Of a stretch of 64,000 bases of DNA, positions 42,929-44,768 are shown in pieces. Position numbers and translations under genes: made by a program. Origin of the DNA: Dehalococcoidia bacterium. GTDB lineage: Bacteria > Chloroflexota > Dehalococcoidia > UBA2979. Position 1 is the stretch's first letter. Every line of letters starts with the position of its first letter. Under the pieces are notes generated by a model. It searched no databases. It had not been told where the DNA came from and saw only the letters and a list, made by a program, of their open reading frames with translations. The DNA lies in NCBI GenBank assembly GCA_965226785.1, contig CBDDEC010000004.1:588093-652092 (forward strand), read 5' to 3'.

Positions 42929-43870
42929 TCAATGCGTGTTCCTCAAGTACTGCACGATCTCCATCATCACCCTGCAGTCGACCTCGTTGTAGCGCCCGAT
43001 CTCCTGCATTAGCTCGGTCTCGGGGAGCGTGCAGCCGCGTTCGTCGGCTTCCCGCGCGCAGCTCCAAGCGCCCACCATTGCGCCGAGACCATCTGCCGGC
43101 CCGTCGCCCCACACCGTCTCGATGAGGCCACGCTCATGCATTGCCTTGGCGACCGGCTTCAGACTGAATTCCAGCGACCCCCGCACCACTACTGGCTGCG
43201 CCGTCATTACTTCGCGATAGAAGTCAAACCAGCGCGGGGTAGGCCAGCTGTTCCCCGCGTGACGCACCTTGGCGGAGTTGTATGCAGTCTCGAACTGCGT
43301 CGGCTCGTGATGCGACCAGTGGAAGAGGCGAGGCTCGTCGCCGTCCGGATCCAGCCGCTGCCGCGCCGCCGCCATGTGCGCGAACCAGGCATCGAGGATG
43401 GTAGCCTCATGTCCCTCGGTGAGCGCATCCACGGTGAACTGCGCGAACTGCCAGTCCCCGTTCTCGACGTGCCCGCACCCAATCATGAAGATGAGGGACT
43501 GCCCCCCCTTCTCAGGGATGCGGGAGAAGTCGTCATCCAGATCCTCGACCGTTTCGAAGTCGACGTAAAATTCGACCGGCGCCTCTGGGCGCCACTCCTC
43601 TTCAGCGGCTTGAATGTGCGGCGGTGCGACCGGAAGTCCGTCGGTCGTCTGATTGATGTCGAGGACCGCTTGAAGCGTCGGCGCCTGCTTTGAACCGCTG
43701 ACGCCGACTGTCTGAGGCGTGCAGCTGGGAGCGGTCCACCGGTGGACGCCGGCCGCATGTGCCTGCCGACGACCGATCGGACCGACCTGCCAGAGGAGCG
43801 TGAGTTCTTCAAGTTCGTCGGCGATTTGCTTCTTCGCCGCGTGCCAGGGAGCGTCCTCATCGTTGCTCAT
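42929..43870 (-). CDS. RNase H-like (DEDDy 3'-5' exonuclease/YprB-like) domain protein
   Basis: FYVDFETVED (Exo I-like D-x-E) and YNEVDCRVMMEIVQYL (Y-x3-D Exo III-like). 313 aa. Confidence 0.45.
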   Translation of the reverse strand: MSNDEDAPWHAAKKQIADELEELTLLWQVGPIGRRQAHAAGVHRWTAPSCTPQTVGVSGSKQAPTLQAVLDINQTTDGLPVAPPHIQAAEEEWRPEAPVEFYVDFETVEDLDDDFSRIPEKGGQSLIFMIGCGHVENGDWQFAQFTVDALTEGHEATILDAWFAHMAAARQRLDPDGDEPRLFHWSHHEPTQFETAYNSAKVRHAGNSWPTPRWFDFYREVMTAQPVVVRGSLEFSLKPVAKAMHERGLIETVWGDGPADGLGAMVGAWSCAREADERGCTLPETELMQEIGRYNEVDCRVMMEIVQYLRNTH

Positions 43871-44768
43871 GTTGGGACACAGCTCTGGGACAGAGGGTCT
43901 GGGAAATGCCCGCCAGTCGGCGCCCCGTGCGCGCCCTCTCTATCCACTGGCACGCATCGCGCACCGCGTCTGCAATGGCGTAATCCCGTGCCATGCTGCC
44001 CGTCTGCGGAACCGGGGCTAGGAGCTCCATGCAGCTCGTGCCACGGAACGTCTCGCGTCCGCGTTGCCGCCGCCAGCCGCGGCCGAGCAGGTGCGATGTG
44101 GGCGGCGTGAGCCCTTGCAGGCGACCCAGCGCGCGGTTGTAGATGAAGACCTGCGTCTTGTACGCCGGTGCTGACCCGCCATTGTCGAGCTCACCGCCGG
44201 CACTGAGGCCGAGTGTCGCGAACTTGATGTCCACGACCCGGTAGTGCCAGCGCTCGCCGCCGAGATCGGGCGCCGGCTCCATCGCCTCGTCGTCGGTGAG
44301 CGCGCTCGGGAAGAGGTCCCGCAACGCGTCGCTGCGCACGAGCAAGTCCGGAGCACCATACACCCGACTCTCGGCGTCGCGGAGCACTCCCTGGTGGATG
44401 AGCGGCGTTCCCGCGCGCATTGCCTCAAACGTCTCCTCGGTCTTCATGAGGTCCCGGATTTCCGCGGGGCCGGAGGAGACGGTCACCACGTCCGTGAGCT
44501 TTCGCAGGCCGCTGACGACAGCCTCTTCGAACTCGGCGCCCCTTCGGAAGATGAACTCAGTGAAGTCGGTGCGGGCGTCGTAGTCCGGGAGCGCGGTGTC
44601 GCGCTCGAAGCCCTGCGCCTCGCCGCACAGTTCCAGCCAATCGAGCAGCGGGTCGCCGAGGACGTAGTTGCGGGTGCGCGTGGCGCTGACCCACTCGGCC
44701 CAGTCGTCTGACGACTCCGGAACGATCAGGCGACCATCGTCGCTATACGTGAGTGCATCGATGCTCAC
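43857..44768 (-). CDS. PD-(D/E)xK (RecB-family/Cas4-like) nuclease-domain protein
   Basis: Motifs GAPDLLVRSD ... YRVVDIKFATL (PD...D-x-K). 303 aa. Overlaps the downstream gene by 14 nt. Confidence 0.5.
   Translation of the reverse strand: MSIDALTYSDDGRLIVPESSDDWAEWVSATRTRNYVLGDPLLDWLELCGEAQGFERDTALPDYDARTDFTEFIFRRGAEFEEAVVSGLRKLTDVVTVSSGPAEIRDLMKTEETFEAMRAGTPLIHQGVLRDAESRVYGAPDLLVRSDALRDLFPSALTDDEAMEPAPDLGGERWHYRVVDIKFATLGLSAGGELDNGGSAPAYKTQVFIYNRALGRLQGLTPPTSHLLGRGWRRQRGRETFRGTSCMELLAPVPQTGSMARDYAIADAVRDACQWIERARTGRRLAGISQTLCPRAVSQHEQR

What the first reader, a model, noticed from the sequence alone, without database searches (positions are those of the whole stretch)
42929..44768. Split RecB-family (PD-(D/E)xK) nuclease plus RNase H-like exonuclease module next to integrase, candidate defence or DNA-processing system
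Two overlapping minus-strand genes. The upstream one carries a classical PD...D-x-K nuclease signature (GAPDLLVRSD ... VVDIKF). The downstream one carries DEDDy/RNase-H-like exonuclease-type motifs (YVDFETVED; Y-x3-D in YNEVDCRVMM). The PD-(D/E)xK plus RNase-H-like combination is, from memory, the architecture of the poorly characterised 'TM0106-type putative RecB family nuclease'. Here it appears as two ORFs with an unusual 14-nt out-of-frame overlap, so it is either a frameshifted single gene or a genuine two-component system. It sits inside an integrase/IS-rich island, the typical neighbourhood of phage-defence or mobile-element maintenance nucleases.
Basis: partly seen in the sequence, partly recalled or inferred. 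Interest (0 to 1): 0.7.

Follow-up and report, generated by a model that had tools for sequence, protein, structure and literature searches.

The report
Frameshifted two-domain nuclease pseudogene
The two overlapping ORFs are one ~613-codon gene for a two-domain DNA nuclease (Cas4/RecB-like cutter plus proofreading-type 3'-5' exonuclease), broken by a 2-base deletion, so this is a decaying gene among insertion sequences and not a two-protein system.

Summary
Both ORFs, the 14-nt overlap and all quoted motifs are present. The "two-component" reading is rejected. A 99.6%-identical contig reads straight through the junction. The window lacks two bases (AC) between 43926 and 43925. Restoring them gives a 613-aa ORF that aligns end to end with intact homologs. 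In 82 of 82 related genome loci, and in the best 150 of 3359 protein clusters, both domains sit in one chain.

A structure model of the closest intact homolog (pLDDT 92.9) shows an N-terminal Cas4/Dna2-like PD-(D/E)xK nuclease without Fe-S cysteines, a helical linker, and a C-terminal DEDDy exonuclease resembling family-B polymerase and MrfB/YprB exonuclease domains. The family is a distant, collinear relative of the TM0106 RecB-like nucleases but falls far below that model's cutoff. Most members carry no Pfam annotation, and no PADLOC defence model matches.

The deletion is shared by a second haplotype. The window lineage also carries derived substitutions at conserved positions, which favours a real pseudogene over an assembly error. 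Downstream, a restriction-modification methylase gene is cut after 20 codons by an IS110 element.

This is an ordinary decayed gene of an uncharacterised but recognisable nuclease family. Interest is low to moderate.

The parts
42929..44768 (-). The whole gene, now a pseudogene. It is 613 codons once the 2 missing bases are restored and encodes a PD-(D/E)xK nuclease, a helical linker and a DEDDy 3'-5' exonuclease.
   Evidence: Restoring AC gives an uninterrupted 613-aa ORF. That ORF aligns 1-613 to 1-613 without gaps to P0185 at 83% identity, and to more than 100 intact homologs of 604-615 aa.
43925..43926 (-). The frameshift lesion. Two bases (AC) are missing between these positions: the window reads CACGG--GGCGCC where the relative reads CACGGACGGCGCC.
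   Evidence: Base-by-base alignment with L001 at 99.6% identity. The Logan contig L002 carries the same deletion. P0002 reads ...ERARTDGADWRAFPRPSVPELCPNMSNDEDAPWH... straight across the junction.
43926..44768 (-). The native-frame part of ORF A (residues 1-281), the Cas4/RecB-like PD-(D/E)xK nuclease domain. Catalytic codons are D141 at 44346-44348, D180 at 44229-44231, K182 at 44223-44225, Q206 at 44151-44153 and Y210 at 44139-44141.
43857..43925 (-). The out-of-frame tail of ORF A: 22 non-native codons (RRLAGISQTLCPRAVSQHEQR) and a TGA stop.
   Evidence: Translations of the three frames, compared with P0002 and P0185.
42929..43925 (-). The native continuation (residues about 282-613): a linker with an HhH-like segment, then the DEDDy exonuclease domain. 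Catalytic codons are D404 at 43559-43561, E406 at 43553-43555, D516 at 43223-43225, Y594 at 42989-42991 and D598 at 42977-42979. The stop codon is 42929-42931. The ORF B ATG at 43868-43870 is simply internal Met301.
42678..42737 (-). Remnant of a restriction-modification methylase gene (HsdM-like): the first 20 codons, MFEQAFKNIDDALRKEAGCT, then a break.
   Evidence: Homology with L001 ends at window 42678. In L001 the gene continues as an N6_Mtase/Eco57I protein, followed by Methylase_S-like (a faint hit) and ResIII genes.
41608..42657 (+). IS110-family transposase gene. Its element abuts the methylase remnant, and the DNA beyond the break at 42677/42678 is unrelated to L001.
   Evidence: Pfam DEDD_Tnp_IS110 (1e-21) and Transposase_20 (2.8e-20). 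No further L001 homology is found in the window.
45196..46596 (-). Upstream flank: an rve_3 transposase fragment (45196..45759) and an IS6/IS240-family transposase (45760..46596).
   Evidence: Pfam rve_3 2.7e-14 and DDE_Tnp_IS240 5.5e-39.

Best explanation
ORF A and ORF B are the two halves of one gene, split by a 2-bp deletion at 43925/43926.

Shown: the intact gene encodes a ~613-aa single-chain protein with three parts. The N-terminal part is a Cas4/RecB/Dna2-type PD-(D/E)xK nuclease domain (D141, D180-x-K182, Q206-x3-Y210) that lacks the Cas4 Fe-S cysteines. The middle part is a helical linker that aligns to the HhH-like segment of a TM0106-family protein. The C-terminal part is a DnaQ-superfamily DEDDy 3'-5' exonuclease domain (D404, E406, D516, Y594, D598) of the family-B polymerase and MrfB/YprB type.

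Inferred: the intact enzyme binds a DNA end through the linker and trims or degrades both strands. The PD-(D/E)xK domain would act on the 5' strand and the DEDDy domain on the 3' strand. It would work alone, or in some lineages fused to Lhr-type helicases, JetD-like modules, AAA+ ATPases or a YqaJ exonuclease.

In this window the gene is most likely dead. The frame shifts after residue 281, and ORF A ends in 22 junk codons. The exonuclease half has no ribosome-binding site of its own. The lineage has since picked up substitutions at otherwise conserved positions. The adjacent restriction-modification methylase gene has been cut off by an IS110 element. The locus is a decaying remnant in an IS-saturated region.
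For: Single gene:
- P0002 (98% identical) is one polypeptide across the junction.
- DNA alignment pins the difference to a 2-nt deletion.
- The repaired ORF is 613 aa and collinear with P0185 and more than 100 intact homologs.
- 82 of 82 related loci carry one uninterrupted frame.
- The best 150 of 3359 cluster representatives match the profile in one chain, most of them across nearly its whole length.

Folds:
- The AF2 model of P0185 has pLDDT 92.9 and pTM 0.89.

Real decay rather than error:
- The Logan contig L002 shares the deletion but differs from the window at 44441, so two haplotypes carry it.
- The window carries the derived state at columns that are at least 90% conserved: A110T, Q234R, D347A.
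- Other long genes in the window are intact with full-length Pfam coverage.
- The neighbouring hsdM-like gene is cut by an IS110 element.

Mechanism hints:
- All 71 invariant columns, including both catalytic sets, are kept.
- Fusions to DEAD/Helicase_C/WH_Lhr, ResIII, DUF3323+DUF2399/JetD_C, AAA and YqaJ occur in other family members.
Against: - No biochemical data exist for any member of this family. No relevant papers were found.
- The polarity and substrate of each domain are inferred from fold relatives only.
- All invariant residues are still present, so the inactivation is recent. ORF A alone still encodes an almost complete nuclease domain that could be active.
- The window may come from a long-read metagenome assembly. 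The sister contig L001 carries several frameshifts of its own, in this gene, in hsdM and probably in hsdR, whose ResIII-type coding region is split into several short genes. A systematic base-calling error therefore cannot be fully excluded without reads.
Confidence: 0.8

Rival explanations
1. The 2-nt deletion is an assembly or base-calling artefact. In the organism the gene is intact and makes the full 613-aa nuclease.
For: Related MAGs in this clade are long-read assemblies with megabase contigs. The sister contig L001 has frameshifts in this gene and in hsdM, and its ResIII-type (hsdR) coding region is split into several short genes. That pattern suggests error-prone consensus in this data type. 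All 71 invariant residues are intact in the window copy.
Against: The same deletion is in a separately assembled Logan contig that differs by one SNP. The context, GGACGG to GGGG, is not a simple homopolymer miscount. About 30 kb of other coding sequence in the window is free of frameshifts. Window-specific derived substitutions sit at conserved columns, as expected after loss of function.
Confidence: 0.12
2. The split is tolerated or functional. ORF A makes a stand-alone PD-(D/E)xK nuclease, and ORF B is translated from ATG 43870 by coupling or re-initiation, so the two act together as a two-protein nuclease.
For: The break falls at the end of the N-terminal domain, in helix 265-285 of the model. 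Each ORF therefore keeps a nearly whole domain and its catalytic residues. The ORF B ATG lies 11 nt upstream of the ORF A stop codon, which could in principle allow re-initiation.
Against: There is no Shine-Dalgarno-like sequence before the ATG. That Met is an ordinary internal residue, present in only some homologs. No homolog among 82 loci or the best 150 cluster representatives is split here. The split is confined to one near-clonal lineage. Derived substitutions at conserved sites suggest relaxed selection.
Confidence: 0.05
3. A programmed +1 ribosomal frameshift between 43939 and 43857 restores a full-length protein.
For: Both frames are open over about 27 codons around the lesion.
Against: There is no recognisable slippery or stall motif. 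The sequence arrangement is not conserved: the 99.6%-identical relative and all other homologs encode the protein in one frame.
Confidence: 0.02

Closest known systems
TM0106 family RecB-like putative nuclease (NCBIfam TIGR03491)
   Same: The domain order is the same: PD-(D/E)xK (Cas4-like), then an HhH-like linker, then RNase_H_2. hhalign against an annotated Rhizobium member gives probability 96.4%, E 1.2e-9, collinear over 331 columns. 58 of 64 family members give a weak TIGR03491 hit. The only plasmid-collection hits are annotated with this name.
   Different: Scores are 10-17 bits against a cutoff of 97.45, and the best family member reaches only E 1e-7. The CxxCx5C Fe-S motif seen in the Rhizobium protein is absent. 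There is no C-terminal SF1 helicase, unlike that Rhizobium protein. Sequence identity is about 30%, and only across the nuclease core.
MrfB (YprB) of Bacillus subtilis, prototype of Pfam RNase_H_2 (PF13482)
   Different: MrfB is DEDDh and works with the MrfA helicase. Here the fifth residue is Tyr (Y594-x3-D598, DEDDy, as in family-B polymerases). The domain is fused to a PD-(D/E)xK nuclease, and no MrfA-like partner is nearby.
Cas4 / RecB / Dna2 family PD-(D/E)xK nucleases
   Different: The four-Cys Fe-S cluster is missing. No link to cas genes was seen. There is no Pfam PDDEXK hit.
Uncharacterised giant-virus proteins (Faunusvirus A0A3G4ZWN9, Yasminevirus A0A5K0U8I2, Sylvanvirus, CroV E3T4R0 'YprB RNase H-like domain-containing protein')
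   Same: The structural match is full-length across both domains: Foldseek E 2e-48 to 2e-27, TM-score (query) 0.63-0.86, 17-30% identity.
   Different: The viral proteins are mostly longer (471-892 aa), and their function is equally unknown.

Membership tests
TM0106 family RecB-like putative nuclease (TIGR03491) | Whole-protein score at or above the curated cutoff of 97.45 bits | tested here: not met
   ORF A scores 10.3 bits. The intact homolog P0185 scores 17.3 bits. The best of 64 family members reaches E 1.1e-7.
TM0106 family RecB-like putative nuclease (TIGR03491) | Cas4-like PD-(D/E)xK domain followed by an RNase_H_2 domain in one polypeptide | tested here: met
TM0106 family RecB-like putative nuclease (TIGR03491) | Cas4-type cysteine motif (CxxCx5C) after the nuclease core, as seen in the annotated Rhizobium member | tested here: not met
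   The Rhizobium sequence has CTLCRWSSHC. The aligned segment of this family has no cysteines. The only frequent Cys in residues 1-300 is C246.
Pfam RNase_H_2 (PF13482; YprB/MrfB-like) | Score at or above the gathering threshold of 22 bits | tested here: inconclusive
   ORF B scores 17.6 bits, and the repaired protein and P0185 score 14.9 bits, all below threshold. Family members P0228 (34.3) and P0235 (25.7) are above it.
DnaQ-superfamily DEDD 3'-5' exonucleases | Four acidic residues plus Tyr or His in three Exo motifs, on an RNase-H-like fold | tested here: met
Cas4 / RecB-family PD-(D/E)xK nucleases | PD-(D/E)xK fold with the D, (D/E)xK and QxxxY motifs | tested here: met
Cas4 / RecB-family PD-(D/E)xK nucleases | Four-cysteine Fe-S cluster | tested here: not met
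   There are no conserved cysteine columns in the N-terminal 300 residues other than C246.
Known anti-phage defence systems (PADLOC-DB v2) | Match to a defence-system protein model and a conserved partner-gene neighbourhood | tested here: not met
   There are no PADLOC hits for either ORF. Neighbours differ between loci. The only link is adjacency to an R-M methylase in this lineage and fusions to JetD-like or helicase modules in distant members.
Genuine two-gene (split) nuclease system | The split into two ORFs is conserved in relatives, and the second ORF has its own translation signals | tested here: not met
   82 of 82 loci have one frame. A 99.6%-identical relative is unsplit at this site. 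There is no SD-like sequence before the ORF B ATG.

The most novel reading that the evidence does not exclude
The ~610-aa family to which this pseudogene belongs could be a distinct, uncharacterised class of helicase-independent, dual-polarity DNA-end nucleases. It combines a Fe-S-less Cas4-like 5' nuclease, an HhH-like linker and a DEDDy 3'-5' exonuclease. It is common in Dehalococcoidia/Chloroflexota, shared with giant viruses, and reused as an effector module fused to Lhr-type helicases, JetD-like (Wadjet-type) modules, AAA+ ATPases and YqaJ exonucleases. That pattern would point to a role in destroying or processing linear DNA that has not been described.
Probability: 0.4. Interest if true: 0.5.

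Novelty: new member of a known kind. Interest (0 to 1): 0.27.

Why it matters
For this window it matters little. The locus should be annotated as a single frameshifted pseudogene, not as two genes and not as a new two-component defence system. It is also a worked example of gene decay in an IS-saturated region.

At the family level there is modest value. A large family has no Pfam annotation for its nuclease half and is mostly labelled hypothetical: 3359 clusters at 50% identity, and 349 matching loci among 185,579 species-representative genomes. It can now be described as a Cas4-like plus DEDDy exonuclease enzyme distantly related to TM0106-type nucleases. It has full-length counterparts in giant viruses and fusions to helicase and Wadjet-like modules. 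Both give testable leads on function.

Tried and rejected
1. The first homolog search, with ORF A, returned only proteins of 525 aa or less, many with out-of-frame tails. I briefly considered that the family is habitually frameshifted. A second search with the 525-aa P0090 returned hundreds of intact proteins of about 610 aa, and 82 of 82 genome loci are unbroken. The first list most likely reflects how that search collects candidates for a short query.
2. A profile search of PDB sequences gave only chance-level hits.
4. The afdb50 library was unavailable.
5. The phage collection gave no tblastn match. The plasmid collection gave only two weak hits, both TM0106-annotated.
6. A search for a conserved partner gene found only clade-specific synteny: DUF72, LigD and Ku in 6-8 related Dehalococcoidia, a DNA methylase in 6, and a sigma-factor-like gene in 6.
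7. Literature searches for TM0106, PF13482 and Cas4-like fusions found nothing on this architecture.
8. I considered independent inactivation in the sister strain as evidence, because L001 has a +1 G insertion near codon 20. I down-weighted it because L001 also has frameshifts in hsdM and a fragmented hsdR region, so that contig may simply be error-prone.

Full report
**What is in the sequence**

ORF A is 43857..44768 (303 aa, GTG start). ORF B is 42929..43870 (313 aa, ATG start). They overlap by 14 nt in different frames. Both have the codon-position GC pattern of real coding sequence in this 65% GC window.

They fall on invariant columns of an alignment of 64 full-length homologs:
- D141 (GAPDLLV)
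- D180-x-K182 (VVDIKF)
- Q206-x3-Y210
- D404-x-E406 (YVDFET)
- D516 (WFDF)
- Y594-x3-D598 (YNEVDC)

**One gene or two**

A protein 98% identical to the window (P0002) runs through the junction as one polypeptide...QWIERARTDGADWRAFPRPSVPELCPNMSNDEDAPWHAAKK.... Its contig, L001, is 99.6% identical to window 42678..45699.

Base-by-base comparison shows that the window lacks two bases (AC) between 43926 and 43925. The relative reads CACGGACGGCGCC and the window reads CACGG--GGCGCC. Putting the two bases back gives an uninterrupted 613-aa ORF. That ORF aligns 1-613 to 1-613 without gaps to P0185 (83% identity) and to more than 100 intact homologs of 604-615 aa.

Wider searches agree:
- A scan of one genome per species found 349 matching stretches that encode a relative. 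I examined 82 loci, 79 from that scan and three fetched earlier, and the gene is a single uninterrupted frame in all 82.
- A search of 1.84 billion cluster representatives found 3359 relatives (1620 at E 1e-30 or better). The best 150 match the profile within one chain, most of them across nearly its whole length.

The lesion is therefore lineage-specific. It lies about 55 nt upstream of the ORF B ATG, not in the 14-nt overlap. The "start" of ORF B is just internal Met301, and it has no Shine-Dalgarno-like sequence before it. The two-component reading is not supported.

**Real mutation or assembly error**

A Logan contig from run ERR14231558 (L002) matches window 42650..44873 without gaps and carries the same deletion. 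It differs at one base, 44441, where it keeps the ancestral Ala110 codon. Two haplotypes therefore share the deletion, and A110T arose afterwards.

Using the family alignment as an outgroup, the window carries the derived state at three columns that are at least 90% conserved: A110T, Q234R and D347A. Only one of the seven substitutions relative to L001 is synonymous. Other long genes in the window are unbroken and cover their Pfam models fully. These include an 817-aa CoA-transferase, ABC transporter components, luciferase-like monooxygenases and transposases.

This favours a real, recent pseudogene. Two caveats apply. This clade's assemblies are largely long-read MAGs. L001 itself has frameshifts in this gene and in hsdM, and its hsdR region is split into several short genes. 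I give about 0.12 to an artefact, and reads are needed to settle it.

**What the gene encodes**

Sequence libraries say little about the window copy:
- Pfam finds nothing in ORF A, and RNase_H_2 in ORF B only below threshold (17.6 against 22 bits).
- NCBIfam gives a 10-bit TIGR03491 hit against a cutoff of 97.
- PADLOC finds nothing.

Some homologs pass the RNase_H_2 threshold: P0228 at 34.3 bits and P0235 at 25.7 bits. 58 of 64 homologs give weak TIGR03491 hits.

Foldseek against the PDB is weaker but names the same folds: DnaQ, Cas4, MGME1 and the HSV polymerase exonuclease domain.

The only annotated relatives in the plasmid collection are two Rhizobium "TM0106 family RecB-like putative nuclease" genes. 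A profile-profile comparison with one of them is collinear from the nuclease core through an HhH-like linker into the RNase_H_2 domain, with probability 96.4% and E 1.2e-9. That Rhizobium protein also has a CxxCx5C motif and a C-terminal SF1 helicase. This family has neither.

Membership of TIGR03491 fails its own cutoff.

**How it probably works**

This part is inferred. Cas4, Dna2 and RecB-type PD-(D/E)xK domains act on 5' single-stranded ends. DEDD domains remove nucleotides from 3' ends, and MrfB is a Mg2+-dependent 3'-5' DNA exonuclease (PMC11194089). A single chain that combines both with an HhH-like DNA-binding linker should trim or degrade both strands at a DNA end without needing a helicase.

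Other family members are fused to partners consistent with a DNA-end processing or degradation module, sometimes in a defence setting:
- Lhr-type or ResIII helicases (P0238, P0240, P0293)
- DUF3323+DUF2399 or JetD_C modules (P0269, P0248)
- AAA+ ATPases (P0301, P0331)
- A YqaJ exonuclease (P0285)

Genomic neighbours are not conserved. Clade-specific neighbours include LigD, Ku and DUF72 in 6-8 related Dehalococcoidia and a DNA methylase in six. No experimental work on this architecture was found.

**The neighbourhood**

191 nt downstream of the gene lie the first 20 codons of an HsdM-like methylase (42678..42737, MFEQAFKNIDDALRKEAGCT). Homology to L001 stops there and an IS110-family element begins (transposase 41608..42657). 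In L001 the methylase continues and is followed by specificity-subunit-like and ResIII genes.

Further out on that side are:
- a truncated copy of a 1.1-kb IS (40755..41447)
- a tyrosine recombinase (39801..40754)
- an IS481/Mu-like transposase (37990..39528)

On the other side are an rve_3 fragment and an IS6-family transposase (45196..46596).

The description "IS/integrase-rich" is correct. However, the integrase is separated from the gene by two IS elements, and no homolog locus links them. The picture is a former nuclease plus restriction-modification patch being eroded by IS activity.

**Verdict**

The feature is a frameshift-inactivated copy of a widespread, unannotated but recognisable two-domain nuclease family. 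I rate it a new member of a known kind, with low to moderate interest (0.27). The family itself would be a reasonable target for biochemistry because of its giant-virus counterparts and its module fusions.

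Noticed in passing
window 12954-14245, 27314-28605, 58173-59464 (reverse): There are three 99.5-99.9% identical copies of a ~1292-bp IS3-family element (322-aa transposase with HTH_21, rve and rve_3). The first two are in direct orientation. They bracket about 13 kb of lower-GC DNA (0.59-0.64) that carries peptide ABC transporter genes, two CoA-transferase III genes, a beta-lactamase-fold gene and a MaoC-like gene. 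The arrangement resembles a composite transposon.
   Followed up: partly
window 51236-52356, 60040-61160, 57238-58172, 40755-41447: There are four copies, 96-98% identical, of a ~1121-bp IS with an rve_3 transposase. The third ends exactly where the 1292-bp IS begins (58173), so it looks interrupted by it. The fourth is truncated and abuts the tyrosine recombinase gene at 40754/40755.
   Followed up: partly
window 42678-42737 (-) and L001 5517-9997: An HsdM-like methylase gene is cut after 20 codons by an IS110 element in the window. In the sister contig L001 the R-M genes follow, but hsdM is frameshifted and the ResIII-type (hsdR) region is split into several short genes. This is either further decay or a low-quality contig.
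   Followed up: partly
model ma474170c43b7 (P0185) against BFVD: The best viral-library structural matches are full-length, two-domain matches to uncharacterised proteins of giant viruses. They are Faunusvirus, Yasminevirus, Sylvanvirus, CroV and an environmental Megaviridae sequence, with E 2e-48 to 7e-24, up to 30% identity and TM up to 0.86. There was no tblastn match in 50,697 phage records.
   Followed up: no
proteins P0238, P0240, P0293, P0248, P0269, P0301, P0331, P0285: The whole 600-aa module occurs fused to other domains. N-terminal partners are Lhr-like or ResIII helicases, DUF3323+DUF2399 or JetD_C (Wadjet-type) modules, and a YqaJ exonuclease. AAA+ ATPases occur as C-terminal partners.
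   Followed up: partly
loci L015, L019-L024, L026, L027: In one group of related Dehalococcoidia genomes the gene sits beside DUF72-like, LigD-like (913 aa) and Ku-like genes. I identified the neighbours by eye from their sequences, not by a family scan. This could hint at a role in end-joining repair, or it could be simple clade synteny.
   Followed up: no
L011 1258-3168 and 6001-7836: One Dehalococcoidia genome carries two paralogous full-length copies of the gene, 53% and 58% identical to P0185, about 3 kb apart on the same strand.
   Followed up: no
window 351-826 vs 10806-11281: There is an 84%-identical 479-bp direct repeat between two coding regions. It probably reflects paralogous genes and is not an IS.
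   Followed up: no
window 45132: A further 1-nt indel relative to L001 lies just beyond the rve_3 transposase fragment upstream of the nuclease gene. The 3-kb shared segment therefore has three indel events against seven substitutions.
   Followed up: no
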